Virus record (IMG/VR): IMGVR_UViG_3300027896_000028
DNA: 64,000 nt
Strand: one strand, 5' to 3'
DNA from: a virus
Lineage: Duplodnaviria; Heunggongvirae; Uroviricota; Caudoviricetes
Of the stretch, positions 3,760-46,694 are shown piece by piece (position 1 is the stretch's first letter; each line of letters opens with the position of its first letter). A model generated the notes under the pieces. That model searched no databases and was not told where the DNA came from. It was given only the letters and a program-made list of their open reading frames with translations. The position numbers were made by a program, and so were the translations under genes.

Positions 3760-3790
3760 AGTAAAATAATAAAGGATTTGGTTGTGATAG

Positions 3791-4042: not shown

Positions 4043-4043
4043 A

Positions 4044-14820: not shown

Positions 14821-14828
14821 ATATTCAT

Positions 14829-16961: not shown

Positions 16962-16968
16962 TAAATTT

Positions 16969-18267: not shown

Positions 18268-18272
18268 ACTTT

Positions 18273-19139: not shown

Positions 19140-19142
19140 AAT

Positions 19143-27122: not shown

Positions 27123-27123
27123 A

Positions 27124-32454: not shown

Positions 32455-32781
32455 TTAATCTTCATACGACTTGGTAATGTTATAGATTGACTGATCTATT
32501 GTATAAGCACCTGTCAGAGTTACAAAATTAGTGCTTTGAAAAACCGCTTTCATACCTGCATTCTTAATTTCCTGTTTACACAATTCTTTAAAAATTTCTG
32601 CTGCGGTTATGTTATTAGGTATAGACAACAACTCTGATACTGCTTTGCTACCCTCTGGTGTTGTCATATGACTCCAAACTATCGGGGTATTTGGAACCAT
32701 AGCAATCTCTAAACAAGGATTAGGCACACTACCGGGTGTGTTCAATGTCCATTCTTCATCTGTTATTGGGTCTTCGTTCAT
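32455..32781 (-). CDS. hypothetical protein (paralog family, member 3, divergent)
   Basis: 108 aa. TDEEWTLNTPG...IFKELCKQ. Confidence 0.45.
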   Translation of the reverse strand: MNEDPITDEEWTLNTPGSVPNPCLEIAMVPNTPIVWSHMTTPEGSKAVSELLSIPNNITAAEIFKELCKQEIKNAGMKAVFQSTNFVTLTGAYTIDQSIYNITKSYED

Positions 32782-33257
32782 TCAGAGTCGATTTCATCTA
32801 ATGTGGAGTCAAAATCAACCGAGCTGTTAAGCCTCTTAATAATCTCGTCCTTGCAGCTATCTATCAAACCGACATCAGTATCAGTCTGAACTAGATGAGA
32901 TGTCAGATTAGACATATCGTTGTCATCATCCACAATTACAAAGCAAGTCACATCCGGGTTCTCGTCGAGCCAGTGTTGTATCTCACCACCTCTATCGAGG
33001 TGCGGCAGACTTGCTGTCTTACCAATGACTACACGACGAGTAGCTGGGCTGAGTTTTGAGAACAGATAATTAACTGATGCTGGGTGATGTCTCCATGTAG
33101 ATGAAAGAACGATGTCGCAGCCTGTTTCTGCAGCAATTTGATCTAACATTGCGCATTTATCTTTTTCTACCCCTACCAAACCATCAAATGATTCGGTCGT
33201 AAACCTGTTGTTGAGAACTCCATCAACGTCTAAGAAGAGTACTTTCCTTGATTGCAT
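32778..33257 (-). CDS. HAD-superfamily phosphatase
   Basis: 159 aa. Motif I is FLDVDGVLN, and the acidic motif is FVIVDDDND. Confidence 0.7.
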   Translation of the reverse strand: MQSRKVLFLDVDGVLNNRFTTESFDGLVGVEKDKCAMLDQIAAETGCDIVLSSTWRHHPASVNYLFSKLSPATRRVVIGKTASLPHLDRGGEIQHWLDENPDVTCFVIVDDDNDMSNLTSHLVQTDTDVGLIDSCKDEIIKRLNSSVDFDSTLDEIDSE

Positions 33258-33323
33258 AATTAGTTTTTTTGTAGTGTGATTTCCATTGTTGTAATTATAT
33301 TTGACAAATTTAAAAAGTCAATG

Positions 33324-34799
33324 TTATTTTTTAATTTGGTCTTTCCAGAATATCGATAGAGCGAGTTGAGTACAGCGACTCTGGAATTGAGCTGCACTTT
33401 CACCTCTGCCTGCTTCGATAGTTTTCTCAACCAGTTCAGGGTAATCAGAGAGTATATATTTCGCAACTTTTTCGCGCTCTGTTTGCTCCATCTCGTGCAG
33501 CTCGATAATACGGTCTACACGCCCTGGTCGAGTTGATTTGACTTCGATATCAGCCTTATCTGGTATACCAAGTGCAGGGTCAAGACTTGATATGTCGTTA
33601 GTTGTAATAACCAAGAACACACCATCTCCATTATTGACACCTGAAATAGTATTCAAGAGACAATCGAATGTGAGTGAGTCTATCAACTCCTTAGCCGTAA
33701 TATTTGCTCTACCGCTGAACACGTTATCAATATCTTCAATCAGAGCTATAGCAGGTGCATTTTGTTGAACCTCCTGCCATGCTTCGGTAAAGGAGTTATT
33801 GTCTAACCCGCTTAAGTCGAGAACATATACAGGTAAATCCAAATCCATCGCAATAGAACGAACAAGTGTACTCTTACCAGTTCCAGGTTTACCGTGTAGG
33901 AGCCAGCCCATGCGCCAGGTAATACCTTTTTCTTTGAACCACTTTTCGTGTTTAAGCCACAACCGAATTTCTTTAACGGCTTCCATAACATAGTCAGGGA
34001 AGAAGAAAACATTAAAAGCTGTGTTCTTACCTTTCTTGGTTCCAATATCGCCAATCTCCCAGTTAAGTAGGCGAACTACGTTTGTGCGTATATTTGTTTC
34101 ATCTGAAGATACACCAGTGTGACCACCTCTACTCGACACTTCATCGCTACCATTCTTTCCACCTGAGCCCTTCATAGAGCGACCAATACGCGTAATGCTA
34201 AAGCGATTATTCTTTTCTACAAGGTTTTCAAAGCCTGTTACACACTTCAACCCGCTATTAGAGCTTATGCGGTGTAGGCTGTTATAATAGTCGATCGACT
34301 CTAATACAAGTTTATTGATATCAAATAGGCCTCTGATTGTGCTGACGTTAATAATAAAGTCGGAGCTATATTCACCAAAGCCGCGAGAATCCTTCTGACC
34401 ATTAAAACCGTATACAATTGGTCTCTTATTAAGCCATACTAGGATGCTTTCAGACGAGAAGCTTTCAAAACCAACAACCTCAACGCGTTGAACAGGGTTA
34501 ACAAACAGCTTACTACCACCAAAGACTCGAGGTCCAAATATGCTACGCTTTGCTTTAGCGTTTAAGTAAGCGCTTATTGCTTTAGCTGAATCATCCTTAA
34601 GAGTAACCTTGACAAACAATATGCTGCTCAAATTGCGCACAAAACCGGTAATATGGCCCCATGCAGTAACAACTATCGCGATTACAGCAGCGATACCCGC
34701 ATATCCACCAGCACTAGTTAAGTATGCAGGTATATTTGAACTTGCTGCATGAACAACAGGGACTGCGTTAGAAGCTTGAATAATGAAGTTAGTTGTCAT
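33324..34799 (-). CDS. membrane-anchored AAA+ ATPase (BCS1-like)
   Basis: 491 aa. N-terminal TM segment, Walker A LLHGKPGTGKST and Walker B ALIEDID (the IEDID form typical of BCS1). Confidence 0.65.
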   Translation of the reverse strand: MTTNFIIQASNAVPVVHAASSNIPAYLTSAGGYAGIAAVIAIVVTAWGHITGFVRNLSSILFVKVTLKDDSAKAISAYLNAKAKRSIFGPRVFGGSKLFVNPVQRVEVVGFESFSSESILVWLNKRPIVYGFNGQKDSRGFGEYSSDFIINVSTIRGLFDINKLVLESIDYYNSLHRISSNSGLKCVTGFENLVEKNNRFSITRIGRSMKGSGGKNGSDEVSSRGGHTGVSSDETNIRTNVVRLLNWEIGDIGTKKGKNTAFNVFFFPDYVMEAVKEIRLWLKHEKWFKEKGITWRMGWLLHGKPGTGKSTLVRSIAMDLDLPVYVLDLSGLDNNSFTEAWQEVQQNAPAIALIEDIDNVFSGRANITAKELIDSLTFDCLLNTISGVNNGDGVFLVITTNDISSLDPALGIPDKADIEVKSTRPGRVDRIIELHEMEQTEREKVAKYILSDYPELVEKTIEAGRGESAAQFQSRCTQLALSIFWKDQIKK

Positions 34800-34800
34800 A

Positions 34801-35103
34801 TTATTTTACCTTTTCAAAAACGTGAGCTACAAATGCACCTTCCTTAAGAGTATAAGAGCCAATAAATAAGACCCCTGTGTCAGAGCAAGGTGTATCTACT
34901 CCTACTGTAATTATCTCTTTTGGTATATATGGATTGTTAATATTCTCTGCAACATACAAGTTAACTGCTGGTCTAATACCATACGCACCAGATACTGGTT
35001 TTGATTTATCAGTATGAATGCTTAAGAACATGGCTCCCTCTCTCACATGAATATTCTGTGAGTTGCTGACGCTCAGTTCTATAGCTCTAATTTGCATGCT
35101 CAT
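34801..35103 (-). CDS. hypothetical protein
   Basis: 100 aa. Confidence 0.4.
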   Translation of the reverse strand: MSMQIRAIELSVSNSQNIHVREGAMFLSIHTDKSKPVSGAYGIRPAVNLYVAENINNPYIPKEIITVGVDTPCSDTGVLFIGSYTLKEGAFVAHVFEKVK

Positions 35104-35725
35104 AATTTGTCGTGAATGTCGTTGTTTGATTTATTTCCAGACACTTATAATACACACCATCAATAGTAATTTCAAGATTTTTATGGTGGTGTCCAAAGAA
35201 AACTTGTTTCGGTTTGCGTCTCTCAATCATTCGCTGGAGAGCTAACCTAGTACGAGATTTTGCAGTAACCCACGGCCACGCACCCTGTACAATATTCTGA
35301 GGGCCATCGTGTGAAAGAAGAGTATCAGCAGAGCTGTGTTCCCATTGATTAATAGCTTCTTCGAGTTGTTGGTATGTCAACTCTTCATCATCCCACCAGT
35401 CGATACCAATTGTGCGAGAATCCTTGTCATGACTATCTGCACCAGAAACAAAGAAGAAGCCTTTATACTCACCGAAATCACCTAGACAGTTTGGAAGGGT
35501 ATGGCACTCTTTGCGATTGTCGTGATTACCTGGGAAGAACTTAAAGGTAGGTGGTAACTTCTTAAACTTGTATGTATCCGGTACACCATCAACAATAAAG
35601 CCAACACCTAAGTCTCCTATCTGGATAACCTCAGTTTTAGTAGGTACCCTCTTCTGAGCTTTTTGGTGCACCTTATGGCACCTATCTAGGTAACCATGTA
35701 CATCGCCTAAAATTGTAAATGTCAT
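35087..35725 (-). CDS. metallophosphoesterase (calcineurin-like / lambda PPase-like)
   Basis: 212 aa with GDVHG, GDLGVG and GNHDN motifs. Confidence 0.75.
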   Translation of the reverse strand: MTFTILGDVHGYLDRCHKVHQKAQKRVPTKTEVIQIGDLGVGFIVDGVPDTYKFKKLPPTFKFFPGNHDNRKECHTLPNCLGDFGEYKGFFFVSGADSHDKDSRTIGIDWWDDEELTYQQLEEAINQWEHSSADTLLSHDGPQNIVQGAWPWVTAKSRTRLALQRMIERRKPKQVFFGHHHKNLEITIDGVYYKCLEINQTTTFTTNYEHAN

Positions 35726-35922
35726 ACTATTGGTGATCTTAGATCTAAGAGATCAAAGTCGTTCTTGTTGACAGTTAGTTTTCCGTGGTCTTTAAACTCT
35801 ACAATGTAGTAGTAGTCATCGCATACTCTAGTATCTCGAGTAACAGCAATTAAGGTACCTTCTTCATGCTTCTCTATTCTGTTACCTTCAACGGTAACAG
35901 CTTTGCGTGCGCACACCCTCAT
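35722..35922 (-). CDS. hypothetical protein
   Basis: 66 aa. Confidence 0.35.
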   Translation of the reverse strand: MRVCARKAVTVEGNRIEKHEEGTLIAVTRDTRVCDDYYYIVEFKDHGKLTVNKNDFDLLDLRSPIV

Positions 35923-36022
35923 TCTATTGTAGATTCTTCAGCTTTGATAGCTTCCTGTTTTTGTTTCTCGAGATAGATGTTGTATTCCGCTTCTTGTTCA
36001 GTTTGTTCTTCAGTCGTCATAT

Positions 36023-36205
36023 TTACCTTTTTAATAGGATGTTGATCCAAGTGATTAATGTAATTAAAAATGGTGCTGTAATCAAGGCGAAAATCACGCC
36101 ACCTACTGGCCCGGAATCACAATGCCAGAAATGGAACCATTTAGTCTTCTTGACTATTACAGTTGGTTTGGTAGGTACTATCGGTTTTGATGTTTGTTGT
36201 ATCAT
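36023..36205 (-). CDS. small membrane protein
   Basis: 60 aa, hydrophobic. Confidence 0.3.
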   Translation of the reverse strand: MIQQTSKPIVPTKPTVIVKKTKWFHFWHCDSGPVGGVIFALITAPFLITLITWINILLKR

Positions 36206-36420
36206 GCTAGTTCGTTAATAGTTGGTAAATGGTTTCCTTGGACATTACGTGTATATACAAAAGTCGACGGTACTAGGTCCCATGGATTATATCCAATATA
36301 AGCTGTATGCGAAGTTGTATCCGGTTTAGGGAATTCAATCTTCTGCGGTCCAGGTGGTTGAAACAGTGTGTTCAAACCAACTGGTCTCAGGATATTAGGG
36401 TTAATAGCTCCTACAGTCAT
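36202..36420 (-). CDS. hypothetical protein
   Basis: 72 aa. Confidence 0.35.
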   Translation of the reverse strand: MTVGAINPNILRPVGLNTLFQPPGPQKIEFPKPDTTSHTAYIGYNPWDLVPSTFVYTRNVQGNHLPTINELA

Positions 36421-36872
36421 ACAGGTAGTTTACAGATAAACAAAGTACCTTCCCACTCTTCGAAGATAACTTTGAGCATCGTTTCAATAATTCTCCAGTC
36501 TCCTCCACCGAGGCCACACCCGATAAAGTAGGGTACTGCAGCACTTCTCAAACCTACAGTTTCAAGATGACTGCGAATACCTGTCATCCCGGTAAAGAAG
36601 GCTTCATAGTCGGTATGACGTTTATCACTTCCATACCGATATTGACTGTATAGGTTATAGATGTACTTAGCATCATAAGCTTTAACACAGCTATAGTGGC
36701 CCATCTTAGCTTTGTCTCCACAAGTGGTATGATTATCTGCCTCAGCAGCTTCAGGGTACCTATCACGAATTAACCTAGCAATGCCGCCACCCATCTTCCC
36801 AAAGCAATTGCATTGGTGAATGATAGCATCACTCTCCATTTTAAAGATGTCCATTTCAACATTTGTAATCAT
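36417..36872 (-). CDS. Macro-domain protein (ADP-ribose binding/processing)
   Basis: 151 aa. IIHQCNCFGKMGGGIARLI matches the macro-domain core (NAAN...GGGV). Confidence 0.7.
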   Translation of the reverse strand: MITNVEMDIFKMESDAIIHQCNCFGKMGGGIARLIRDRYPEAAEADNHTTCGDKAKMGHYSCVKAYDAKYIYNLYSQYRYGSDKRHTDYEAFFTGMTGIRSHLETVGLRSAAVPYFIGCGLGGGDWRIIETMLKVIFEEWEGTLFICKLPV

Positions 36873-37522
36873 TTCTTTTCCTCTAGTCTTCCAGCTGTAT
36901 TGTCAATTTCCTGTCTACGTTTAGCTGCTTTAGCTCTGCATTCAGCGCAGCGAATAGTAACCCAGCCCAGACTAGCTGTTACATCCTTTGTGGAACCGCA
37001 AGTCTCACAAATCTTATAAGACATAGATTCCGCGAAGTCGATATACGCCATGGTGGTCATATCCCCACCCCTAACATAGAAGCACAACCCGCCGAACTTT
37101 TCTTTAACCTGCAAAGCAACCACTTGAGATCTGGGGATCTTGGATTCCTTATGGTGTTCATGCAAGCTGAAATGGCTTTGAATCCACTGATACAATCTCC
37201 ACTCTGTACTCTTAAAATATCCCGCAGGTCTAGGGCCCTTGTTGTCGTCCAACAATATGTTGTGTGCTAACGGATACACGATATGATTCCACACCAAGGC
37301 ATTCCACAATCTCTTCAGCTTACGAATGACTATATTTTCAGGGACCCAATCCTTCTGGTCGCAATGCCATTGAATCTTGCGACAGGTTAGATCAAGAAGA
37401 TCATACCATCCATCTCCGCATTCAAACCCCCAGTACATACAACTTTCAGTCATTGGCTTATCTCTGTCAGCAAAGATCTTAGGGTACTTGTCGTATAACT
37501 TCTTTGTATTTTCTTCGTTCAT
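36869..37522 (-). CDS. hypothetical protein with C-terminal zinc ribbon
   Basis: 217 aa. CETCGS...CAEC at the C-terminus. Translationally coupled to the macro gene. Confidence 0.5.
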   Translation of the reverse strand: MNEENTKKLYDKYPKIFADRDKPMTESCMYWGFECGDGWYDLLDLTCRKIQWHCDQKDWVPENIVIRKLKRLWNALVWNHIVYPLAHNILLDDNKGPRPAGYFKSTEWRLYQWIQSHFSLHEHHKESKIPRSQVVALQVKEKFGGLCFYVRGGDMTTMAYIDFAESMSYKICETCGSTKDVTASLGWVTIRCAECRAKAAKRRQEIDNTAGRLEEKK

Positions 37523-37893: not shown

Positions 37894-37930
37894 AAAAAAC
37901 GCGTACTATTTCTAATACGCGTTTTGTGTT
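37894..37930 (-). terminator. rho-independent terminator (bidirectional hairpin)
   Basis: 10-bp stem AAAACGCGTA/TACGCGTTTT, 10-nt loop, flanked by A6 and T-runs. Downstream of gene 37942..38190. Confidence 0.6.
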
Positions 37931-37941
37931 TATCTGTTTGG

Positions 37942-38190
37942 TTAGTTAAATGCAGTTAATGCATTCACAACTGTAGCGAGGCGAGCGTTAGCCTGAGCCT
38001 GCGTCCAGTCACCAGCAGCATCGTAAGCAGCTCCACTCCACAACACAACCGGTTGCGCGAGTTCTGCGACGAAAGCGCGGACGATCTTCTGACTTGGAAG
38101 ATCGACAACGCGCTCAAGCGTTACAGAGGAGATAACTACAGCCTGCTTAATCGTCTTAGGAGACGATAGGTCTATTTTAATGGCAGCCAT
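37942..38190 (-). CDS. hypothetical protein
   Basis: 82 aa. Confidence 0.45.
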   Translation of the reverse strand: MAAIKIDLSSPKTIKQAVVISSVTLERVVDLPSQKIVRAFVAELAQPVVLWSGAAYDAAGDWTQAQANARLATVVNALTAFN

Positions 38191-38301
38191 ATTTGGTCCT
38201 TTTTGTTATGTCCGATTGTCTACGCGATCAGCTTTCGTTCGGACGCCGTGCTAATCGTTTATAAGGTTACCACTCAGTAACCAAAATTGTTAAATTATTT
38301 A

Positions 38302-39516
38302 TTAAACCCCAGCACCTAAGTCCCAGGTTCTGATAGTACCTGCATTATTGTATTCAGCTATTAAGTTGCCAGATGAAACGTCAATACGGAAAGCTAAACC
38401 ACCACGCATCAAAGTACCATCTATTTCGTTACCCACTATCGCACCACCATCTGTAAGAGCGGATAGCGTAGGAACTGTCATCGCCACAGTCCCAGTTTGA
38501 TGTATACGTATACTACTACGTGAATTAGTACTGTTGTGTCTACCAAATTCCATAACACGGAAAGGGGCTGGCCCTATGTTTACAGCCATACCAACTACAA
38601 CCGATTCGTTTGCGGAAACTGAATTTTCCCAACCGAATATTTGTGAGGAAACGTTTCCAGAAGCTATCTGATTAAATCCGCCAATCACTGTAGAATTCGT
38701 ACCTAGCAGTTGGTTATTACAACCTACTACAGTTGATGTATTACCGCTACCGTTTATTGTATTAATAGAGCCAACAATTGTAGCATTATCGCAGGTATCA
38801 TAATTGCTAGATGTCATTGTATTACCATAACCGACTACTGTCGCATTATCAAAGTATTTTGCAGACATTGTATTACTACAACCAACAGCTGTAACATTCA
38901 GTTGAGGTATATTGCCGTAACCATTTGAAACTGTATTGTTGTACCCAAACACGGCGGCATTTTCACCGTGGACTGTATTCTTATAACCAAATGCGCAACC
39001 TTTCTGACCGTCTGCAATTGAATTTTTGTAACCAATTGCTGTAGACCGATAAGCTGATGCAGTGTTATTATAACCGAAGGTAGAAGTATAATAACCACTA
39101 GAAGTGTTGCCATGACCAAAAGCCGAACTATACGGACTACCGACTGTGTTGCTATGACCAAATGCGGAGCCACCCGAAAGGTAAGTTGGGTAAGACCATG
39201 TCGTCGAGTGAACTACATTACGAAAACCGACTGCAGAGCTTTCATTAAAGTAATTCGAAACGGTGTTATTGCAACCAACCGCAGAACCGTTCACACTACC
39301 CGCATAATTACCCCATCCCATTGCAACTGCATGAGCATACATACCTGCCGTCGTATTACTACTACCCACTCTAATCTCACCGCTTGGTAATCCATTAACA
39401 ACAGAGACTGCTGTAGCTCTAAACTCTGTGTTAGAGTTAGTATTGTAACCAACTAATTGAGCATCAGTTAGCTGTGTATTATCTTTCGATGCGAAGTTAG
39501 TAAAATTCTGTGACAT
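38302..39516 (-). CDS. fiber/adhesin-like repeat protein, paralog A (YadA-head/Hep_Hag-like repeats)
   Basis: 404 aa. Starts MSQNFTNFAS. Central S(A/T)(A/F)(F/I)GY.NT degenerate heptad-ish repeats. Conserved C-terminal domain ...DGTLMRGGLAFRIDVSSGNLIAEYNNAGTIRTWDLGAGV. Confidence 0.55.
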   Translation of the reverse strand: MSQNFTNFASKDNTQLTDAQLVGYNTNSNTEFRATAVSVVNGLPSGEIRVGSSNTTAGMYAHAVAMGWGNYAGSVNGSAVGCNNTVSNYFNESSAVGFRNVVHSTTWSYPTYLSGGSAFGHSNTVGSPYSSAFGHGNTSSGYYTSTFGYNNTASAYRSTAIGYKNSIADGQKGCAFGYKNTVHGENAAVFGYNNTVSNGYGNIPQLNVTAVGCSNTMSAKYFDNATVVGYGNTMTSSNYDTCDNATIVGSINTINGSGNTSTVVGCNNQLLGTNSTVIGGFNQIASGNVSSQIFGWENSVSANESVVVGMAVNIGPAPFRVMEFGRHNSTNSRSSIRIHQTGTVAMTVPTLSALTDGGAIVGNEIDGTLMRGGLAFRIDVSSGNLIAEYNNAGTIRTWDLGAGV

Positions 39517-39537
39517 ATATGTGATTATTTAATGCTC

Positions 39538-40347
39538 TCAGTAACCAAAAGCATTAAAAAACCAGGTGTGGTCGTTACGAATCATGTTGGCCAAGTCTTT
39601 GCCTAAAACATCATTATAATCAGGTTTAACGGCTTTAAGCGAAGTTGCTACCTGATGATTACCATACACGCCAAAATGCGAGTCGTCTTCAAACACTTCT
39701 TTCTTCAGATTATTGAAGTCATGAGTGAATGGATCTATGCCAATATATTCGTACACCTTATTCATTGTCTCTTGCGGTGCCATGCAAAGATCCTCGTATC
39801 GGACGAATAGAATCTTCTTATCTATACCACGTTGAAATGAATCGGCTGTACGTAATAACGCTAATCCGATAGGTTGAGTATTCAACCAATGCTGAATGCG
39901 CTGGCCTGTAGTCATGTTAGTTAGATTAACTGGATTATCTGTACCAACAGGCAAATGACGAGTCTTGCGGTAAACCTTTTCCATACTAGCAATAGAAGCT
40001 CTCAAATCTCTAACCATACAGATCATCTTCGGGTTAGGATTCCATTGGTCTACCCATTCATAGTAATGAGACCAACCTCTATTCTTATCGCATACAATTG
40101 GACGATTAGTAATAGGCGCGTAATAGGAATCTGCCATTCCTTTGCACATGTTGATGAAACCTTTTAACATCAACTCGGGATCTTGAGATTTGACTTCAGG
40201 AAGATTGTAGTTGCCACGAGCCGCAAATTGATATTCAAGCAATGGTGAGGTGGCGCTACCGTAGATATTAGGATTCTGGTGCAGAATGACTTGAAGTAGT
40301 TCGGAGCCACTACGGGGCATCGATGTATTAAAAATCAGCTTTTCCAT
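39538..40347 (-). CDS. sulfotransferase-family protein
   Basis: 269 aa. The 5'-PSB-like loop SMPRSGSELL and the 3'-PB-like RDLRASIAS are arranged as in PAPS-dependent sulfotransferases. Confidence 0.6.
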   Translation of the reverse strand: MEKLIFNTSMPRSGSELLQVILHQNPNIYGSATSPLLEYQFAARGNYNLPEVKSQDPELMLKGFINMCKGMADSYYAPITNRPIVCDKNRGWSHYYEWVDQWNPNPKMICMVRDLRASIASMEKVYRKTRHLPVGTDNPVNLTNMTTGQRIQHWLNTQPIGLALLRTADSFQRGIDKKILFVRYEDLCMAPQETMNKVYEYIGIDPFTHDFNNLKKEVFEDDSHFGVYGNHQVATSLKAVKPDYNDVLGKDLANMIRNDHTWFFNAFGY

Positions 40348-40385
40348 ATGCTGATTATTTAATTAAAAGTTCTAAAAATCAAATG

Positions 40386-40643
40386 CTATACACCTACACC
40401 TAAATCCCAAGTTTTGATAGTACCGCCACTGTTATGATCAACCATTAAGTGGCCAGTAGACGGATCAATTCGAAAACCCAAACCATTACGCATTAAAGTA
40501 CCATCTATCTCTTGACCTAAACTGCTGCCGCCGTCAGCAAATGCGGATGCAGTTAACGTTGTAAAGGTTGTAGCACCTGTATTAGTATGCATACGAATGC
40601 CTGTGCGGGATACGAAGTTGGTAAAATTCTGCGACATACGCAA
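40386..40643 (-). CDS. truncated fiber paralog (shared N-terminus and C-terminal domain only)
   Basis: 85 aa. MRMSQNFTNFVSR... then directly the conserved GTLMRNGLGFRID...WDLGVGV C-domain. Confidence 0.5.
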   Translation of the reverse strand: MRMSQNFTNFVSRTGIRMHTNTGATTFTTLTASAFADGGSSLGQEIDGTLMRNGLGFRIDPSTGHLMVDHNSGGTIKTWDLGVGV

Positions 40644-40647
40644 TTAT

Positions 40648-41784
40648 TTATACTAACAAACCTAAATCTAATGATGTGACATTGCCAGACGCATTATTGA
40701 ATTGTAGTATCGCGTGATTGCTTGTGCTAATACGAACAGCAATACTGCCACGCATTAATGTACCATCGACTTCGCTGCCTGCAGTAGATCCACCGTCTGT
40801 AAAGGCTGTATCGGTTTGTGGAACGGTAAGGTTAGTCATACCACTTGCAGTATGCATACGAACCGCTGCTCGAGTAGTGCTCCAATCACCGAGCTCTAAT
40901 GCCCCTTTAGTTGAATGTACGCTACGACCGATAGCTGTACTATTCGTATCTTCACTGTTACCGTAGCCAACTGAACATCCTATCCCGATGGCTATTAAGT
41001 TGTTAGTACCATTACCATCAGGGTCTACTACATTACTATTACCTAATATCAAACAGTTAGTACCATTAAGTGTATTGCTGTTACCAACCACTACTCCTCC
41101 TTGATTCACAATTGCGTAATTGCTATTACCTACAACGAAAGCATTTACAAACCCTGCTTGTTGAGCATGAGTAGAATTACCAAATATACAATTACCAGGA
41201 CCGATTGGGACGTTGCTATTACCAACTATAATAGTACCAGTATCATCAGCTGTGCTTCGATTATTGTAACCAAATATTGCACCATGATTACCGGCTAATA
41301 TATTATTACTTCCAACCGCTGTTGAAAAGTATCGAAGATTCGTATTGACTGAGTTATTATAACCTATAGCGACTGTGTTGTAACCATGAGCTGTGTTATT
41401 AATACCTAGTGCTGTGCTGTGATCAACAGTAGCGCTATTACCTGCACCTACAGCAACAGCGTTAGTGTAACCGTTGGCTGTGTTGGCATTACCTATTGCT
41501 GCTGAACTACCTGTTCCGTATCCGAAATTACTAATACTGTTATTGCTGATACCTATAGCTGTTACTAAATTACCTGAATACCCTGAATTAAAGGAACCTG
41601 TATTACCATCACCTATCATCACCATCTGACTGCTACTACCATCAGGTGTGCTTAAATGGTTGACAACATTTAATAAATCAGCTCGGAATTCAACATTTGC
41701 AGCCGGGCTATAACCTACAATCTGAACCCCAGAGAGTTCGGCCGATGTTGTTCTCTCTGTGAAGTTAGTGAAATTCTGCGACAT
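40648..41784 (-). CDS. fiber/adhesin-like repeat protein, paralog B
   Basis: 378 aa. MSQNFTNFTE N-terminus, GNSN/GYNN repeat core and the same C-terminal domain. Confidence 0.55.
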   Translation of the reverse strand: MSQNFTNFTERTTSAELSGVQIVGYSPAANVEFRADLLNVVNHLSTPDGSSSQMVMIGDGNTGSFNSGYSGNLVTAIGISNNSISNFGYGTGSSAAIGNANTANGYTNAVAVGAGNSATVDHSTALGINNTAHGYNTVAIGYNNSVNTNLRYFSTAVGSNNILAGNHGAIFGYNNRSTADDTGTIIVGNSNVPIGPGNCIFGNSTHAQQAGFVNAFVVGNSNYAIVNQGGVVVGNSNTLNGTNCLILGNSNVVDPDGNGTNNLIAIGIGCSVGYGNSEDTNSTAIGRSVHSTKGALELGDWSTTRAAVRMHTASGMTNLTVPQTDTAFTDGGSTAGSEVDGTLMRGSIAVRISTSNHAILQFNNASGNVTSLDLGLLV

Positions 41785-42088: not shown

Positions 42089-42556
42089 TTATCCTTGAGT
42101 TATCGGTGTACGAATTAAAGGATCTTTAAAAGTCTTCTTGCTCATGATCTCTTGCACCTTTTCAAAACTGATAGGGAAGTAGTTATGACAGTCAACACCT
42201 ACGTCGATTGAGAGAGCATGTGGATCATCTGGTAACGTATTGTGAGTATGACCGTACAAGTGCCAAGCGCCGCGATGAGATTGGTTCCAAACGCGCATAG
42301 CATAATGACACAATGTAATACTCTTATCGCGACAAGTGATCTCTCTATAGCTATCAGAGTATGAGTAAAACTTCTCTCTATTCTGCCAAGCTATATGGTC
42401 ATGATTACCTTTAACAAGTACAATCAAACCGTTAAGGCGTTTGAGATAACTATCAAAACCATACTCAGTCTTGGTAAAAGCGAAATCACCGAGGTGATAA
42501 ATTAGGTCATCTTTCTTCACAACACTATTCCAATTAGCGATTAAAGCCTCATCCAT
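42089..42556 (-). CDS. metallophosphoesterase
   Basis: 155 aa with LGDFAF, GNHDH and GHTHN motifs. Confidence 0.7.
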   Translation of the reverse strand: MDEALIANWNSVVKKDDLIYHLGDFAFTKTEYGFDSYLKRLNGLIVLVKGNHDHIAWQNREKFYSYSDSYREITCRDKSITLCHYAMRVWNQSHRGAWHLYGHTHNTLPDDPHALSIDVGVDCHNYFPISFEKVQEIMSKKTFKDPLIRTPITQG

Positions 42557-42670
42557 TTCAACAGAGCTCTTGAACGGGCGATTACAATACTTGATTATGT
42601 TAGAATGTCCGAAATGAGCTAGGTGTCAGCGGTGAACCAAGTATGGTACCCGCTGACATCACCTTTCTCT

Positions 42671-43539
42671 TTAAATTGTTGATTCATAATATTTGTTTAT
42701 ATACTCTTCTTTGTTATATCTCTCTCCTCGTTTGTATCTATCTATAAGTATAACACATAGCTGCTGCTCTTGCCACTCTTTTTTGAAAGATAAAATTTTA
42801 TCAAACAATTGATCCAGGGTCATGCCATCAGCATCTGTATATCTCCCTTTCTTTTTACTGACATTTTCACTATGGGTCAGTATTTGGCAATTACAAGGAT
42901 GGCGCAATATCTCCGGAAACACTTTATTTTGGAATCCTGTTCTTCTAGAATATATGTGATCTCGTACAACCCCATCAATATTTGTTGTGTTATTAAAAAC
43001 ACCACAATTTGATAATTTATTTTTAGTATCCTTTACAATATCAAACATTCTTTGATTCCAATTGGCGCAATCACGATAAAAAATATAATCATCCTTTTGA
43101 TTGAGTGGGACCCAGTAACCCTTCTCTTCGTATTGTTTTCGTTGTCTCGATTTATATTCAGGTGTAAATTTATTTCTCGATTTAATACCTATGAGCTGTT
43201 TTATTTCATCTGTATGTTTGTGTGAATACGATTCAGCGTCACGATGTTCATGCATAGCGCGAATGCGTTGTTTAGAGAATTTTTTCCTCTGTTCGCAGTA
43301 CCCGCCTTAAACCTATATTCATCGTTAACCTTGGATTTTACAAGTCGTGATTGCTCTTGTTTTTGCTTCAGGGACCATTTGTTTTTGTAATTGGGGTTAT
43401 TAGCCCCACGAAGAGCAGTCTTATACAATATCCTTTGGCATTCTTTTGAACATACAGGGGTATTTGAATTCACTTGGCATGCGTATCGTTTAAATGATGT
43501 TTTACAGACCGCACATTTATATGTAGACTGATTCTTCAT
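42671..43539 (-). pseudogene. HNH homing endonuclease, split into two frames (frameshifted or programmed)
   Basis: ORF 43201..43539 carries an N-terminal zinc finger and a GANNPNYKNKWS NUMOD-like motif. ORF 42671..43255 in another frame carries the HNH core (HIYSRR...HPCNCQILTHSEN). The overlap region contains a T-rich run. Confidence 0.5.
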
Positions 43540-43739
43540 ATAAATATTTAGTCATATCGCGTGTCCAAAATGGGTATCAGATGTGAACCAAGTGCTCATA
43601 TTATTTTTTAAGCCATTCCAGTATAAAATGTATCCACCAAAGCACACCATTGACAAGCATTAGCCAGTAAGCTAACACAGCTGCCATTTTAGTAAAATCA
43701 TTTTGTCTATCTAAATACCTGGCTAATGTTTTCATCATA

Positions 43740-43994
43740 TTATTTCCTAAACCAACTCTCAGTAATATCCATAATACGGAATACTCTGGGAGCCACTATG
43801 TCACTTATAAAAATACAAAACCAAACTATCGGTCCATGTAGAGCTTTATAAAGAAGCCTCTTACGTGGATTGGGTATCTCGTTTTCAGCGGCATACCTAC
43901 CATTACCATCATAATACATCGCCGCGCCTATGCAGCTATATGTTATGATTGCAAATGCAATTAGAAGATTTATCAATATTCTTATGTCTGACAT
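43740..43994 (-). CDS. membrane protein
   Basis: 84 aa with two TM helices. Confidence 0.4.
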   Translation of the reverse strand: MSDIRILINLLIAFAIITYSCIGAAMYYDGNGRYAAENEIPNPRKRLLYKALHGPIVWFCIFISDIVAPRVFRIMDITESWFRK

Positions 43995-44009
43995 ATTAAG
44001 ATTATATCT

Positions 44010-44573
44010 TTATTTCAGATAAGTGGCAAGTGTTTTTAGCGTTTCACTAAAGGAAACTGAAGACACTTTACAAATACCACCTAGCTTGCGTTCCACCATG
44101 CCGTATAGCCATTTACAGAGATTTTCCGAAGTTGGTACAAATTGCACCAATACTAACCCACCCGCCACTTCAATATGATGGGGCGCCGTTGATGGTGTTG
44201 GCGCGATACAATACTCTACGTGATCATTTACAACAACCGCTTGAACGGCATTGAGATCTAGTGCTGATACCTTATCGAGATTTGTTCGCGTGGAATTGAC
44301 AAAATCAATCGCCCACGGGTCTTCGAGATCTAAAATGGTTTTATGGTCCAGCTGATCATCTATAAACTTCTTAAACCAATTCAAATTAACATAATCAAGA
44401 AGCATGCCTTGCGGGTTAACCATTTCCCCTTCTAACTCCACTGTGATGATAGAGTTGTGGCCATGGCACCTCTTACATTTGCAAATAGAATTGTTTGAGA
44501 GTTCATCAGAAAGCTCTTGTTTCCAGACACGATGGGTGTAGCAGAGTTCGAATTGTTTTGAGATTTTATACAT
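44010..44573 (-). CDS. 6-carboxytetrahydropterin synthase (QueD/PTPS)-like protein
   Basis: 187 aa with a CxxxHGH motif (CKRCHGHNSIITVELEG). Confidence 0.6.
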   Translation of the reverse strand: MYKISKQFELCYTHRVWKQELSDELSNNSICKCKRCHGHNSIITVELEGEMVNPQGMLLDYVNLNWFKKFIDDQLDHKTILDLEDPWAIDFVNSTRTNLDKVSALDLNAVQAVVVNDHVEYCIAPTPSTAPHHIEVAGGLVLVQFVPTSENLCKWLYGMVERKLGGICKVSSVSFSETLKTLATYLK

Positions 44574-44585
44574 ATCATTATTATA

Positions 44586-45287
44586 CTATATTTTTTTCTT
44601 AAATCCACAAGAAGGTGTTGAAGTTCCGTAGATTTCTAAATACGATTTCCCTATTTTAGAGTGATTAGGACAATAATAATGTCCAGGTGTTTTAACCATT
44701 TTATTACAACCGCATAAACAAGCTCGAGGTTTTTTGCATTCTACACAAAAACGACCTTTGATATCTGCTGACATAAATTCATTCTTACAGTTCTCACATA
44801 TATGTTTAAATTTTTTATCTTTAAGCTTATACGGCCCTTTCTTTTGCCCTGTTCGACTTAGAACCATCTTTAATCTACTCTCTGCAGAGTGAACTTTGCC
44901 TTTATTGCTTTGAGATATCTTTCGTCTAGTCTCATCAGATATAGTGCGTATTGAATTATTTTGTGATACCATTTTACTATGTTGTATTTTTAATTTTTCG
45001 TATACAACTGATGTAACTTTATAATCTCTTAATACTCTACTATTTTCTGTATTCAGTTGATTACACATGGCCCATAGGGCAAATTTAAGTTTGTTGTTAT
45101 CAGGGTATATCCTTGTCAGTAATTGATGGCATATAAAATGCTCTCTTGCTGTTAAAGACACCTTGTTTGTTTTGCTATTATTGCCGCTCAGGCATTTTGG
45201 TATAATGTGATGTTTTTCGGTGTAACCTTGTAGTACTCGTTGTTTAGCCCTTTCAATGATGTCGTCGTAAATCTTCTTATATTTCAT
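44586..45287 (-). CDS. HNH homing endonuclease
   Basis: 233 aa. HNH core EKHHIIPKC...REH, NUMOD3-like repeats (ETRRKISQSNKGK.HS) and a C-terminal Cys cluster. Confidence 0.7.
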   Translation of the reverse strand: MKYKKIYDDIIERAKQRVLQGYTEKHHIIPKCLSGNNSKTNKVSLTAREHFICHQLLTRIYPDNNKLKFALWAMCNQLNTENSRVLRDYKVTSVVYEKLKIQHSKMVSQNNSIRTISDETRRKISQSNKGKVHSAESRLKMVLSRTGQKKGPYKLKDKKFKHICENCKNEFMSADIKGRFCVECKKPRACLCGCNKMVKTPGHYYCPNHSKIGKSYLEIYGTSTPSCGFKKKI

Positions 45288-45324
45288 ATTAATTATTTAT
45301 ATGAAATGCTTTAATATACACGTA

Positions 45325-45624
45325 TTATTTGGGTGACATATCTGGATTTATAGCCCATTGAATGCATTTCATATCTGTGATATCCACTAAGCGGATACCG
45401 TTCTTCGTTTTAAAGGTAACATGGTTATCTACCTTAGGCGGTTCTATTTTAGGCTGACAATTATCGCAACGTTTGATGTGAAAATCCCAATGGCCACAAA
45501 CATCACAAAAAAAGCCACACGAAGGTTTCCCTTCATGCGGCTTGGACGGATCTGTATTGCCAGAATAAGGCATAAACAGTTTGAAAATGTAGTAGCTAAT
45601 ATCTGTTGTAGGATTTGTAGTCAT
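45325..45624 (-). CDS. cysteine-rich small protein
   Basis: 99 aa with CGFFCDVCGH...CDNC. Confidence 0.4.
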   Translation of the reverse strand: MTTNPTTDISYYIFKLFMPYSGNTDPSKPHEGKPSCGFFCDVCGHWDFHIKRCDNCQPKIEPPKVDNHVTFKTKNGIRLVDITDMKCIQWAINPDMSPK

Positions 45625-46694
45625 TACTTCTTGCTGTCATAGTGTTTGTTAATGATTTTAAAGCTCTTACCGCCTTTCATTTTAACGACAACACCCTCGA
45701 AAGGTACACCATTAATATTGTCAATACCTTCATCGTACTTCTTAATCAATTCAGGTGTTAAGACAACATCCTTCTCAATCATAGGAACTGTTTCAATGCC
45801 AAGAGCTTCGGCTACCTTTACATAGTAGTGTGGAGACTCAATACCTTCATACTGAAGTGTATTGAAATTATAAACGCTGAACAATGCAAAGCCTAATGGT
45901 TTACTAGAATGGGGGTTGATAGACATCTTCTGAATACCATTACCATACATCTCACCGCGTAAGGCTAAGCTGACTTTATGCTTAACGCAGTAATCTTTAA
46001 GCTTCGCAACCAAATCCTTTTCTTTAGCAATAGTGGTGTACTTGTTAACACATTCTGTCTTCAACTCCATGCTTCGAGTGGTGATACCAATATGGTAATG
46101 ACTCGACCAATCTGATGTCTCTAATTGAGCTGCTACCTCTTTACAGAAGACTGTCATGCTACTTCCATCGATTTTCAAAGTAACATCTACAACCTCGCCA
46201 TAAGGAATAGCATCCAAGTTCTGGTAACGCTCTTCATCTGTCTTGCCTAAGCCTGTAGGCAACGGACCTTTAGCATCCAAGTCTTGCGGTATTGGTGGCT
46301 CATATTTAGTGACACCAAGAATATCAGCAACATCCGCACCTTCTAAACCACCAACAACAGTTCCAGAGAATGCATTCATTCGCTCTATTTCAACCGTAGG
46401 AACAATACCCAATGATTCAACAATACCCATACTCCAACTGCCGCGAAGCTTTACAGCTTTCACGCGACTGGATTTGGCTTTGTAGAAAGCAGCCCATTCT
46501 TTATCAGGGAGAACAGTATCAGGCTGGATGAATACAATCAGTTCACCAACTTTATATTGATCACGCTTAACGATACACTGATAGCCCAACACCTTGACAA
46601 TGTCTAAAGTATCTGCATTGCTGTGATGAGCTACTTCTAAAATTTTTTCAATAGATGCGAGTTTCATATTCAAATTATAGCGATTATTTAGCAA
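45624..46694 (-). CDS. ATP-dependent RNA ligase (DraRnl/Rnl5-like: N-terminal OB/tRNA-binding-like domain plus C-terminal nucleotidyltransferase)
   Basis: 356 aa. The N-terminus EVAHHSNADTLDIVKVLGYQCIV resembles the tRNA-binding OB fold. Motif I is KIDGSS, motif IV PFEGVVVK and motif V KIINK. Confidence 0.65.
   Translation of the reverse strand: MLNNRYNLNMKLASIEKILEVAHHSNADTLDIVKVLGYQCIVKRDQYKVGELIVFIQPDTVLPDKEWAAFYKAKSSRVKAVKLRGSWSMGIVESLGIVPTVEIERMNAFSGTVVGGLEGADVADILGVTKYEPPIPQDLDAKGPLPTGLGKTDEERYQNLDAIPYGEVVDVTLKIDGSSMTVFCKEVAAQLETSDWSSHYHIGITTRSMELKTECVNKYTTIAKEKDLVAKLKDYCVKHKVSLALRGEMYGNGIQKMSINPHSSKPLGFALFSVYNFNTLQYEGIESPHYYVKVAEALGIETVPMIEKDVVLTPELIKKYDEGIDNINGVPFEGVVVKMKGGKSFKIINKHYDSKK

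What the first reader, a model, noticed from the sequence alone, without database searches (positions are those of the whole stretch)
38302..41784. Three paralogous fiber/adhesin genes with shared termini, a truncated copy, and an embedded sulfotransferase gene
ORFs 38302..39516 and 40648..41784 share an N-terminal MSQNFTNF motif and a roughly 60-aa C-terminal domain. They differ in a central array of YadA-head-like S-A-x-G-Y-x-N-T repeats. ORF 40386..40643 is only the N-terminus joined to the C-domain. A PAPS-type sulfotransferase-like gene (39538..40347) sits between paralogs. This architecture suggests a cassette-swapping receptor-binding protein locus. The sulfotransferase could modify the fiber or a host glycan, which is unusual in phage fiber loci.
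Basis: seen in the sequence. Interest (0 to 1): 0.65.

Follow-up and report, generated by a model that had tools for sequence, protein, structure and literature searches.

The report
Phage fibre genes coupled to a sulfotransferase
A large phage carries two full-length copies and one head-less mini copy of an adhesin-like fibre wrapped around a sulfotransferase gene, and this fibre-plus-sulfotransferase pairing recurs in many unrelated uncultured phages, pointing to an undescribed, conserved link between a phage fibre and sulfation.

Summary
On the minus strand, B (40648-41784), a head-less mini copy S (40386-40637), a PAPS-type sulfotransferase ST (39538-40347) and A (38302-39516) form a tight co-directional block. 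A strong terminator follows about 400 bp downstream.

A and B are YadA-head-type beta-roll proteins. They lack a signal peptide, stalk and membrane anchor, so they are not autotransporters. All three copies share the peptide MSQNFTNF and a conserved ~75-aa all-beta C-terminal domain. That domain has no Pfam model and defines a family of at least 288 metagenomic clusters.

The paralogs are old (synonymous sites near saturation). S is under purifying selection and is not a decaying remnant.

I found no switching machinery, so "cassette swapping" holds only in the evolutionary sense.

The main new result is that the sulfotransferase is not an oddity. Close orthologs (59-75% identity, hundreds of clusters) lie next to YadA-head/C-domain fibres in about 13 independent phage lineages. 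They are often start/stop-coupled to the fibre gene and usually come with a conserved ~110-aa partner protein. One ortholog sits beside an APS kinase gene.

The sulfotransferase's substrate is unknown. It could be the fibre itself or a host surface glycan. This is an undescribed, testable module.

The parts
40648..41784 (-). Paralog B (378 aa). N-terminal docking-like region (about aa 1-46), about 15 YadA-head beta-roll turns (about 40930-41628), and C-terminal conserved beta domain (about 40651-40899).
   Evidence: ORF. Pfam YadA_head above cutoff. Alignment with A and S. C-domain profile E 1.5e-32. Repeat layout.
40386..40637 (-). Mini copy S (83 aa from the ATG; a TTG two codons upstream at 40643). 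MSQNFTNF plus 3 residues joined directly to the complete C-domain, with no head repeats.
   Evidence: public gene call P0132 is the 83-aa form. AF2 model pLDDT 82.5 as an independent all-beta domain. dN/dS about 0.24 against A. Keeps all family-invariant residues. Junction microhomology TACTAA..TTC between A's 5' end and A's pre-C-domain region.
39538..40347 (-). Cytoplasmic PAPS-dependent sulfotransferase ST (269 aa). No signal peptide; the 5'-PSB loop starts at residue 11.
   Evidence: Pfam Sulfotransfer_3 and Sulfotransfer_1 above cutoff, phrog_27463. PAPS motifs aligned to TPST1. 115 invariant columns among 5 orthologs. 461 clusters at E<=1e-30.
38302..39516 (-). Paralog A (404 aa). N-terminal region, about 17 YadA-head turns (about 38587-39381), and C-terminal conserved beta domain (about 38305-38559).
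37942..38190 (-). 82-aa ORF between A and the terminator. Co-transcribed by position; function unknown. It has its own SD-like AAGGA. It is not related to the ~110-aa partner protein found in other cassettes. Membership in the module is uncertain.
37894..37925 (-). Intrinsic terminator closing the block: a 13-bp stem (AAAACGCGUAUUA/UAGUACGCGUUUU) followed by a U-run.
   Evidence: Sequence. RNA fold -16.9 kcal/mol, z = -5.9, 0 of 200 shuffles fold as well.
38294..40650 (-). Four exact TAAATAAT motifs (38294-38301, 39524-39531, 40354-40361, 40643-40650). Three lie 5-7 nt upstream of the ATGs of A, ST and S. B has a one-mismatch copy 4 nt upstream of its ATG. This is a genome-wide gene-start motif in a genome that largely lacks Shine-Dalgarno sequences.
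   Evidence: 16 matches against 6.65 expected, 0 of 100 shuffles reach 16. 20 of 93 gene starts carry it (<=1 mismatch), and only 7 of 93 have an SD-like motif.

Best explanation
The locus is an expanded copy of a widespread, undescribed phage accessory module. The module pairs a fibre with a dedicated cytoplasmic PAPS-dependent sulfotransferase. In most relatives a ~110-aa partner protein is also present.

The fibre has three parts: a short N-terminal docking region, a YadA-head-type left-handed beta-roll, and a conserved ~75-aa all-beta C-terminal domain.

In this jumbo phage the module holds two old paralogous fibres, B and A. They have the same N-terminal peptide and C-domain but different beta-roll surfaces. 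There is also a head-less mini-fibre, S, created by an ancient deletion that joined the N-terminal peptide to the C-domain and has been kept by selection since.

Inferred mechanism:
- The genes are co-transcribed and made together.
- A, B and S use the shared N-terminus to occupy the same attachment site on the particle.
- The conserved C-domain serves as the folding/trimerisation cap of the beta-roll.
- The variable beta-roll faces provide alternative binding surfaces.
- The sulfotransferase acts in the infected cell on a conserved target belonging to the fibre pathway. Most likely this is the fibre itself, either directly or on an attached glycan.

Shown: domain identities, paralogy, selection, operon layout, and the conserved gene linkage.
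Inferred: virion location, trimerisation role, and the enzyme's substrate.
For: Identity of the parts.

The C-domain is a real family. There are 288 representative clusters at E<=1e-3 and 208 at <=1e-10. It has no Pfam, PHROG or NCBIfam model. It is the most conserved part of these proteins.

Family members look like virion fibres.
- Tail-fibre-type N-terminal motifs, Mtd_N and collagen repeats occur in members.
- Some lie inside structural modules. L094's lies between the major head protein and adaptor Ad1. L087's is next to a tail-fibre protein.

Linkage, starting from the C-domain: 4 of 12 viral loci have an ST ortholog (E 1e-114 to 1e-133) immediately downstream of the fibre.

Linkage, starting from ST orthologs (9 lineages):
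- 5 have a full C-domain fibre within about 2.5 kb (L001/L002, L099, L105, L108, L111).
- 3 have a YadA-type fibre with a partial C-domain match (L106, L107, L110).
- 1 has none (L109).

Distant ST homologs (24-31% identity) show no such neighbour.

Gene boundaries overlap or nearly touch in L087, L094, L099, L106 and L110. That layout suggests co-expression with a structural gene.

ST is far more conserved (59-75% identity) than the fibres (about 30-40%). This implies a conserved substrate.

A deletion scar, ST N-terminus fused to the C-domain tail right after a fibre, occurs in two independent samples. It shows that a fibre-ST-fibre order like this window's existed elsewhere.

L105 has ST followed by a full-length homolog of A/B, including the N-terminus.

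One ortholog is adjacent to an APS kinase gene.

S is under purifying selection, and the N-terminal octapeptide is conserved despite synonymous changes.
Against: - There is no direct evidence that A, B or S are in the virion. In this window the block lies among non-structural genes (phosphoesterases, macro domain, RNA ligase, QueD-like), about 17 kb from the nearest large structural ORFs.
- PHROGs has no family for A, B or S, and no deposited phage has a homolog.
- About half of the C-domain fibre loci have no ST within 10 kb. One ST locus has no detectable C-domain. So the enzyme is not obligatory for the fibre.
- The family has no invariant tyrosine in an acidic context.
- The TPST similarity is weak (E 1.6e-4), and CurM-type, SULT and NoeE similarities are comparable. 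Protein sulfation is therefore not specifically indicated.
- Contexts with glycosyltransferases or sugar-nucleotide enzymes fit a glycan substrate equally well.
- The ~110-aa partner protein is absent from this window.
Confidence: 0.5

Rival explanations
1. Receptor-editing model. The sulfotransferase does not touch the fibre. It sulfates a host envelope glycan or its cytoplasmic precursor, namely the structure recognised by the linked fibre. This would block superinfection or stop progeny from sticking to debris. It is analogous to the O-antigen-modifying genes that sit next to tailspike genes in P22-like phages.
For: - Some relatives place ST beside glycosyltransferases (L002). One places it beside sugar-nucleotide epimerases/dehydratases and an APS kinase.
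- The window has its own glycosyltransferase cluster.
- There is weak similarity to the Nod-factor sugar sulfotransferase NoeE.
- The fibre family has no conserved acidic-tyrosine site.
- Linkage to a conserved domain could reflect a conserved receptor.
Against: - ST is soluble, with no membrane segment.
- It is often start/stop-coupled to a structural gene rather than placed in an early or lysogeny module.
- The phages involved look lytic and span very different genome types. ST stays 59-75% identical across them, which is hard to reconcile with diverse host glycans.
- The seroconversion precedent comes from temperate phages (own knowledge).
Confidence: 0.27
2. This is a programmed cassette-swapping or phase-variable receptor-binding locus, in which shared termini let alternative cores be exchanged to switch host range.
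For: Shared N- and C-termini with divergent cores. A 24-30-nt 5' stretch that is 83-92% identical in all three genes. All five ambiguous bases in a near-identical contig fall in gene B.
Against: - No invertase, integrase, reverse transcriptase or template repeat nearby.
- No significant inverted repeats.
- All copies are co-directional and each has its own start signal.
- C-domains are only 53-65% identical at the DNA level, with near-saturated synonymous sites, so there has been no recent exchange.
- Two independent metagenome contigs carry the same arrangement.
Confidence: 0.05
3. Head-fibre or decoration variant. The proteins are virion fibres, but they decorate the capsid or neck rather than the tail. 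They would mediate loose, reversible adhesion to surfaces or polysaccharides rather than primary receptor recognition.
For: In L094 the fibre, partner and ST sit between the major head protein and head-tail adaptor Ad1, a typical place for decoration genes. In this window the genes are far from the large structural block. Collagen-like segments occur in relatives.
Against: Other relatives carry tail-fibre-type N-termini or Mtd_N. Some neighbour tail-fibre or tail-collar proteins. N-terminal regions differ between lineages, so the attachment site may differ by phage.
Confidence: 0.25
4. Non-structural or remnant model. A and B are lysis-released or intracellular beta-roll proteins unrelated to the particle. 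S is a meaningless deletion remnant. ST is an independent auxiliary metabolic gene that merely hitch-hikes.
For: Non-structural neighbourhood in this window. No PHROG family. The module is absent at this position in 80 related phosphoesterase-bearing contigs, so it is dispensable.
Against: - S keeps every family-invariant residue, has dN/dS about 0.24, and folds confidently.
- Linkage of ST to this fibre family recurs in about 13 lineages with different genome backbones.
- Family members lie in structural modules.
Confidence: 0.1

Closest known systems
Head domains of trimeric autotransporter adhesins (YadA, UspA1, CbpF, BpaC, AtaA)
   Same: Same repeat and fold. The 14-residue h-G-x-x-N-T left-handed beta-roll is supported by Pfam PF05658, by sequence E 6.9e-13 to CbpF, and by top Foldseek hits. 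In those adhesins the head is the ligand-binding part (own knowledge).
   Different: No signal peptide, no neck or coiled-coil stalk (PF05662), and no YadA_anchor beta-barrel (PF03895). The protein is phage-encoded and ends in a different, unmodelled beta domain.
Phage tailspikes and fibres with C-terminal folding/trimerisation (auto-chaperone) domains (P22 and 9NA tailspike, K1F endosialidase, phi29 gp12)
   Different: The structural match is marginal. There is no sequence similarity and no evidence of cleavage. The domain is internal in some relatives.
Virion glycosylation in mycobacteriophages by glycosyltransferases encoded next to structural genes (Freeman et al. 2023, listed in the references of PMC12619734; content from own knowledge)
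   Same: A modifying enzyme gene is embedded in, or abuts, virion structural genes. This is a precedent for phage-encoded post-translational modification of particle proteins.
   Different: The chemistry differs (sulfate from PAPS rather than sugars). No sulfated phage protein is known. The substrate here is untested.
Receptor-modifying (seroconversion) genes adjacent to tailspike genes in temperate phages (P22 gtrABC, Sf6 oac; own knowledge)
   Same: A surface-glycan-modifying enzyme is genetically linked to the receptor-binding protein.
   Different: Those enzymes are membrane proteins of temperate phages expressed from the prophage. This ST is soluble, often translationally coupled to the fibre gene, and found in apparently lytic phages, including jumbo phages.
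Protein-tyrosine sulfotransferases (TPST1/2)
   Same: The best solved-structure relatives by sequence. They share an Arg-type 5'-PSB loop (PRSG[ST]) and the 3'-PB RDxRxxxxS motif.
   Different: Similarity is weak (E 1.6e-4) and comparable to CurM-type and cytosolic SULT enzymes. The TPST catalytic Glu aligns with Ala/Thr in the HMMER alignment.
Invertible or diversity-generating receptor-binding loci (Mu Gin/S-U, P1 Cin, BPP-1 Mtd DGR)
   Same: Multiple alternative fibre sequences with shared ends. One distant family member even carries Mtd_N.
   Different: No invertase, inverted repeats, reverse transcriptase or template repeat here.

Membership tests
Trimeric autotransporter adhesin (YadA family) | YadA-like head repeats forming a left-handed parallel beta-roll | tested here: met
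   PF05658 above cutoff in B and sub-cutoff in A. CbpF E 6.9e-13. Foldseek top hits are CbpF, BpaC, UspA1 and AtaA.
Trimeric autotransporter adhesin (YadA family) | C-terminal YadA_anchor beta-barrel translocator (PF03895) | tested here: not met
   No Pfam hit in A, B or S. The closest homologs also lack PF03895, whereas bacterial hits have it.
Trimeric autotransporter adhesin (YadA family) | Sec signal peptide and coiled-coil stalk/neck (PF05662) | tested here: not met
   The N-termini (MSQNFTNFASKDNTQ...) have no hydrophobic segment (read from the sequence, no SignalP run). No PF05662 hit. The model has no helices.
Phage virion fibre / receptor-binding protein | Encoded in a phage genome, with homologs carrying recognised fibre modules and lying in structural gene blocks | tested here: met
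   Jumbo-phage context. Relatives carry a tail-fibre N-terminal motif, Mtd_N and collagen. L094 and L087 are in structural contexts.
Phage virion fibre / receptor-binding protein | Physical presence in the virion, and trimeric assembly | not testable with these tools
   No proteomics is available. Only monomer models could be made.
PAPS-dependent sulfotransferase superfamily (Sulfotransfer_1/_3) | Profile match above the curated cutoff | tested here: met
   PF13469 at 60.8 bits (cutoff 27). PF00685 at 39.6 bits (cutoff 22).
PAPS-dependent sulfotransferase superfamily (Sulfotransfer_1/_3) | 5'-phosphosulfate-binding loop and 3'-phosphate-binding motif | tested here: met
   PRSGSE and VRDLRASIAS align with the TPST1 motifs. 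Both are invariant in five orthologs.
PAPS-dependent sulfotransferase superfamily (Sulfotransfer_1/_3) | Sulfotransfer activity and acceptor identity | not testable with these tools
   Needs a biochemical assay.
Protein-tyrosine sulfotransferase (TPST/RaxST type) | Specific similarity, including the catalytic Glu base | tested here: inconclusive
   It is the best PDB hit, but only at E 1.6e-4. Other sulfotransferase classes score close behind. The TPST Glu-Glu aligns to Ala-Thr. An invariant Glu38 lies 5 residues downstream.
Programmed switching RBP loci (invertible segments, shufflons, DGRs) | Site-specific recombinase with inverted repeats, or reverse transcriptase with template/variable repeats | tested here: not met
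   Only weak, short inverted repeats at chance level. Neighbouring ORFs are phosphoesterases, macro domain, PTPS and NUMOD3. All copies are on one strand.
New C-terminal fibre domain family (defined here) | Profile match with the invariant R..H, TDGG, G.E, DGTL.R, N..G and LG positions | tested here: met
   A 9.4e-34, B 1.5e-32, S 1e-26 against profile A4 (these three sequences were in the profile). Independent members reach down to 3e-68. Invariant columns are listed.
Fibre-partner-sulfotransferase module (defined here) | Presence of the ~110-aa partner protein (C-terminal N.DGT[VI]T) | tested here: not met
   The partner is found in L002, L087, L092, L094 and L107-L111. There is no homolog anywhere in the window (best E 0.23).

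The most novel reading that the evidence does not exclude
The sulfotransferase sulfates the phage's own fibre, either on a conserved residue of the C-domain or beta-roll or on a glycan attached to it. That would be the first known case of virion protein sulfation in a bacteriophage. The fibre, partner protein and sulfotransferase would form a dedicated, mobile 'sulfated adhesin' cassette that tunes particle charge and adhesion in many environmental phages.
Probability: 0.3. Interest if true: 0.85.

Novelty: new variant of a known kind. Interest (0 to 1): 0.62.

Why it matters
Phage sulfotransferases are annotated repeatedly, but their role is openly described as unclear (PMC10580990). This locus turns that into a concrete, testable hypothesis. 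One tightly conserved sulfotransferase family (hundreds of clusters) travels with one specific fibre family across very different phages.

If the enzyme modifies the fibre, that would add sulfation to the short list of phage virion modifications. It would also matter for adsorption physics, host range and immune or environmental stickiness.

If instead it edits the host surface, it would be a new kind of receptor-editing function in lytic phages.

Two further points have value on their own. The work defines an unmodelled, widespread C-terminal fibre domain. It also gives a natural example of a head-less mini-fibre kept by selection, which is useful for understanding fibre assembly and for engineering receptor-binding proteins.

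Tried and rejected
- **Deposited phages.** Megablast of the locus and tblastn of A found nothing. Only distant ST homologs (24-30% identity) exist in cyanophages.
- **Profile libraries.** PHROGs and NCBIfam have no family for A, B, S or the 82-aa ORF.
- **Locus conservation via the flanking phosphoesterase.** Eighty related contigs were fetched, and none has the module at that position. The closest relative, L007, has unrelated genes there.
- **Switching machinery.** None found.
- **Sigma-70 promoter and terminator scan.** Uninformative: counts were at chance, and the scan missed the real terminator because its loop limit was exceeded. Folding confirmed the terminator.
- **The 82-aa ORF.** I considered it as a homolog of the conserved partner protein or as an acidic-tyrosine substrate. 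There is no detectable similarity.
- **PAPS supply.** I looked for an APS kinase among ten mid-size window ORFs and found none.
- **S as read-through of B.** Rejected, because S is in a different frame and has its own ATG and start motif.
- **Literature.** Searches for phage sulfotransferase/fibre pairings returned nothing specific.

Full report
**1. The observation**

- B, 40648-41784 (378 aa)
- a short ORF, 40386-40643
- a sulfotransferase-like ORF (ST), 39538-40347 (269 aa)
- A, 38302-39516 (404 aa)

Aligning the three fibre-like proteins shows an identical MSQNFTNF start and a shared C-terminal domain with 35 invariant columns. The short ORF most likely starts at the ATG at 40637, giving 83 aa. 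This is the form called in public data as P0132. I call it S.

Intergenic gaps are 10, 38 and 21 nt. An 82-aa ORF follows A. After it comes a 13-bp-stem hairpin with a U-run at 37894-37925, which folds far better than shuffled sequence (z = -5.9). The block therefore reads as one transcription unit ending at that terminator.

**2. What the fibre proteins are**

- **Sequence.** B passes the Pfam YadA_head cutoff and A is just below it. A matches the head of Fusobacterium CbpF at E 6.9e-13 and also matches UspA1.
- **Fold.** An AlphaFold2 model of A (pTM 0.71, beta-roll core pLDDT 80-94) retrieves only trimeric-autotransporter heads at the top of a Foldseek PDB search: CbpF, BpaC, UspA1 and AtaA.
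- **Repeats.** A has about 17 h-G-x-x-N turns and B about 15, with modal spacing 14.
- **What is missing.** There is no signal peptide, stalk or YadA_anchor. The nearest homologs in 5.8 billion proteins also lack the anchor, while bacterial adhesins match only through the repeats.

So A and B use an autotransporter-type head fold, but they are not autotransporters.

**3. The C-terminal domain**

It is not private to this phage. The closest homologs all end with the same domain, roughly E.GyWs..tR..aiRmH..G.va.T...s.taPTDGGataGSEadGTL.RGm......g.....yNnaGTI.sLsLG.

A profile of the domain finds 288 representative clusters at E<=1e-3 among 1.84 billion proteins. Of these, 208 are at <=1e-10 and 70 at <=1e-30. 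The domain is usually at the extreme C-terminus. It is sometimes followed by further domains.

No Pfam, PHROG or NCBIfam model covers it.

This is the most conserved part of the proteins, and it can be internal. I therefore favour a structural role, as a folding/trimerisation cap of the beta-roll, over a role in specificity. That is inference by analogy with tailspike C-terminal auto-chaperone domains (PMC3357383).

**4. Are these virion fibres?**

There is no direct evidence. The indirect evidence comes from relatives:
- Tail-fibre-type N-terminal motifs occur (GHVELATN.EA.A.TDTTRA.TP).
- One member has an Mtd_N domain.
- Collagen repeats occur.
- Some members lie in structural modules. In L094 the gene lies between the major head protein and head-tail adaptor Ad1. 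In L087 it lies just upstream of a tail-fibre protein. In L107 and L110 it lies beside tail-collar-domain proteins.

In this window, by contrast, the block sits among phosphoesterase, macro-domain, QueD-like, RNA-ligase and homing-endonuclease-like genes. Whether the fibres decorate the tail or the head is open.

**5. Genome context**

The window is part of a jumbo-type phage:
- NAD-salvage genes, ligases and DHFR
- ten tRNA genes
- large structural ORFs at 12-22 kb
- a glycosyltransferase 44-49% identical to those of Xanthomonas and Stenotrophomonas jumbo phages

The same sequence occurs in two metagenomes.

Eighty viral contigs share the flanking phosphoesterase. None carries the module at that position. 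The closest one, L007, has unrelated genes there. The module is therefore an accessory island.

It nevertheless uses the phage's own start signal. TAAATAAT lies 3-7 nt upstream of the ATG in 20 of 93 genes, including all four cassette genes. The genome largely lacks Shine-Dalgarno motifs.

**6. History of the paralogs**

A, B and S are old duplicates. pS is 0.62-0.79, and C-domains are 53-65% identical at the DNA level.

The first eight codons are 100% conserved at the protein level, yet they differ at synonymous sites among all three genes. So the peptide itself is constrained. A full-length homolog in another 185-kb phage contig begins MSSVNFGNFTT...LVGY. This supports a conserved N-terminal docking module.

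S looks like the product of a deletion between TACTAACTTCG (codons 6-9 of an A-like gene) and TACTAATTCACG (just before the C-domain). It has since diverged to 58-62% identity. It still keeps every family-invariant residue and shows dN/dS of about 0.24 against A. So S is maintained, not decaying.

Its role is inferred. Possibilities include a head-less stub competing for docking sites, a co-assembling cap, or an assembly aid.

**7. Cassette swapping**

I found no invertase, reverse transcriptase or significant inverted repeat. All copies are co-directional.

Evolutionary shuffling is evident, however. A 53-aa ORF found in two independent samples fuses a sulfotransferase N-terminus (MQLIYNSSMPRSGSE) to the tail of a C-domain, immediately after a 736-aa fibre. 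This is a deletion scar of a fibre-ST-fibre arrangement like the one here.

**8. The sulfotransferase**

It is a bona fide PAPS-type enzyme:
- It scores above both Pfam cutoffs.
- Both cofactor motifs align with TPST1.
- Five orthologs share 115 invariant columns.

It has no signal peptide or membrane segment. The family is large and tight, with 461 clusters at E<=1e-30 and more than 120 at 60-75% identity.

The acceptor class cannot be read from sequence. TPST1 (1.6e-4), CurM-type, cytosolic SULTs and NoeE (2.6e-5, far below its cutoff) are all similarly distant.

**9. The key finding: conserved linkage**

*Starting from the C-domain.* Four of 12 viral loci have an ST ortholog directly downstream of the fibre: L087, L092, L093 and L094.

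*Starting from ST orthologs.* The outcomes are listed here.

| Locus | What lies next to ST |
|---|---|
| L001/L002 | collagen + YadA-head + C-domain fibre, a second sulfotransferase-like gene, and two glycosyltransferases |
| L099 | C-domain ORF ending 3 bp before ST |
| L105, L108, L111 | full C-domain fibre within about 2 kb |
| L106, L107, L110 | YadA-type fibre with partial C-domain match |
| L109 | no C-domain detected |

A conserved ~110-aa partner protein accompanies the pair in nine loci (L002, L087, L092, L094, L107-L111). It is absent from this window.

The closest ortholog (73% identity) sits directly after an APS kinase gene. That phage therefore supplies the sulfate donor itself.

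Distant ST homologs (24-31% identity) lack fibre neighbours. Gene boundaries often overlap.

**10. Interpretation**

The structural identity and the conserved module are well supported. The enzyme's target is not.

Three observations favour a target within the fibre pathway. I put this at about 0.45-0.5, including sulfation of a fibre-attached glycan.
- ST is tightly, often translationally, coupled to a structural gene.
- ST is much more conserved than the fibres.
- ST is linked to the conserved domain rather than to any host lineage.

Glycosyltransferase and sugar-nucleotide contexts, and the lack of a conserved acidic tyrosine, keep a host-glycan target alive (about 0.27).

I found no literature describing this pairing. 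One paper explicitly states that the role of phage sulfotransferases is unclear (PMC10580990).

**11. Verdict**

The fibre is a new variant of a known kind: a phage fibre with an autotransporter-type head and an unmodelled C-domain. Its conserved coupling to a sulfotransferase appears undescribed and is directly testable.

Interest is moderately high, at 0.62.

Noticed in passing
L005 4681-4842 and L006 1147-1308: A 53-aa ORF (P0138) fuses a sulfotransferase N-terminus (MQLIYNSSMPRSGSE) in frame to the last 38 residues of a fibre C-domain. It lies right after a 736-aa YadA-head fibre. It occurs in two independent samples, so it is a real deletion scar at GSE microhomology.
   Followed up: yes
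window 40657, 40695, 41515, 41524, 41551 (compared with L003): The only five differences between the window and a 20,252-bp near-identical JGI contig are ambiguous bases (N) in that contig. All five fall inside paralog B. This could be population polymorphism in B, or read mis-mapping between paralogs.
   Followed up: partly
window-wide, e.g. 44586-45287, 52091-52600 and 55656-56435 gene starts: Only 7 of 93 gene starts have a Shine-Dalgarno-like motif. 20 of 93 carry TAAATAAT (<=1 mismatch), mostly 3-7 nt before the ATG (16 exact copies against 6.65 expected). This is a non-SD start signal or a short-leader promoter. It hints at a host that does not use SD (for example Bacteroidota-like), but the host was not determined.
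   Followed up: partly
L087 2068-2436; L092 11469-11813; L094 10207-10539; L002 5605-5958; also L107-L111: A conserved ~105-122-aa protein of unknown function accompanies the fibre and sulfotransferase in most relatives. It is predicted to be mostly non-repetitive and has a C-terminal N.DGT[VI]T motif. It is missing from this window. It has no Pfam, NCBIfam or PHROG annotation.
   Followed up: partly
context of P0275 (ENA ERZ1426598; no DNA available): The closest sulfotransferase ortholog (73% identity) lies directly after an APS kinase gene. TerC, TerD and vWA-TerF-like genes and two NAD-dependent sugar epimerase/dehydratase genes are nearby. That phage carries its own PAPS supply.
   Followed up: no
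window 24780-28362 (-): A glycosyltransferase cluster. It includes an HtrL_YibB-like protein, two unannotated ~250-270-aa ORFs, and a PF11397 'GlcNAc' transferase (E 1.4e-73) that is 44-49% identical to proteins of Xanthomonas phages XacN1 and Xoo-sp13 and Stenotrophomonas phages. A possible link to virion or host glycan modification was not explored.
   Followed up: partly
window 2143-6099 (-): An NAD-related cluster: nicotinamide phosphoribosyltransferase (2143-3759), nucleoside 2-deoxyribosyltransferase-like (4234-4731), NADAR domain (4715-5206) and ribose-phosphate pyrophosphokinase (5203-6099).
   Followed up: no
window 32778-37522 and 42089-46694 (-): The fibre block is flanked by an RNA-repair / ADP-ribose-flavoured gene set. 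It includes HAD_SAK_2 (32778-33257), an AAA ATPase, two calcineurin-like phosphoesterases (35087-35725 and 42089-42556), a macro domain (36417-36872), PTPS/QueD-like (44010-44573), a NUMOD3 homing-endonuclease-like gene (44586-45287) and RNA ligase (45624-46694).
   Followed up: no
window 24494-63772: Ten tRNA genes, all on the minus strand: Met, Arg x3, Leu x4, His and Phe. Several are clustered at 51-54 kb.
   Followed up: no
window 12205-21641 (+): A block of five large plus-strand ORFs (871, 710, 432, 296 and 832 aa). Only two have any annotation. The 432-aa protein matches phrog_1645 'virion structural protein'. The 832-aa protein contains a PATR autotransporter-passenger repeat (PF12951, E 1e-6). 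This is presumably the structural region nearest to the fibre block.
   Followed up: no
L002 154-2535, L108 6211-8019, L110 2771-4993: Some family members combine collagen-like G-x-y triplets with the YadA-head roll and the C-domain. In L002 the C-domain is internal and is followed by more collagen and a distal domain. This shows extensive modular shuffling in the fibre family.
   Followed up: partly
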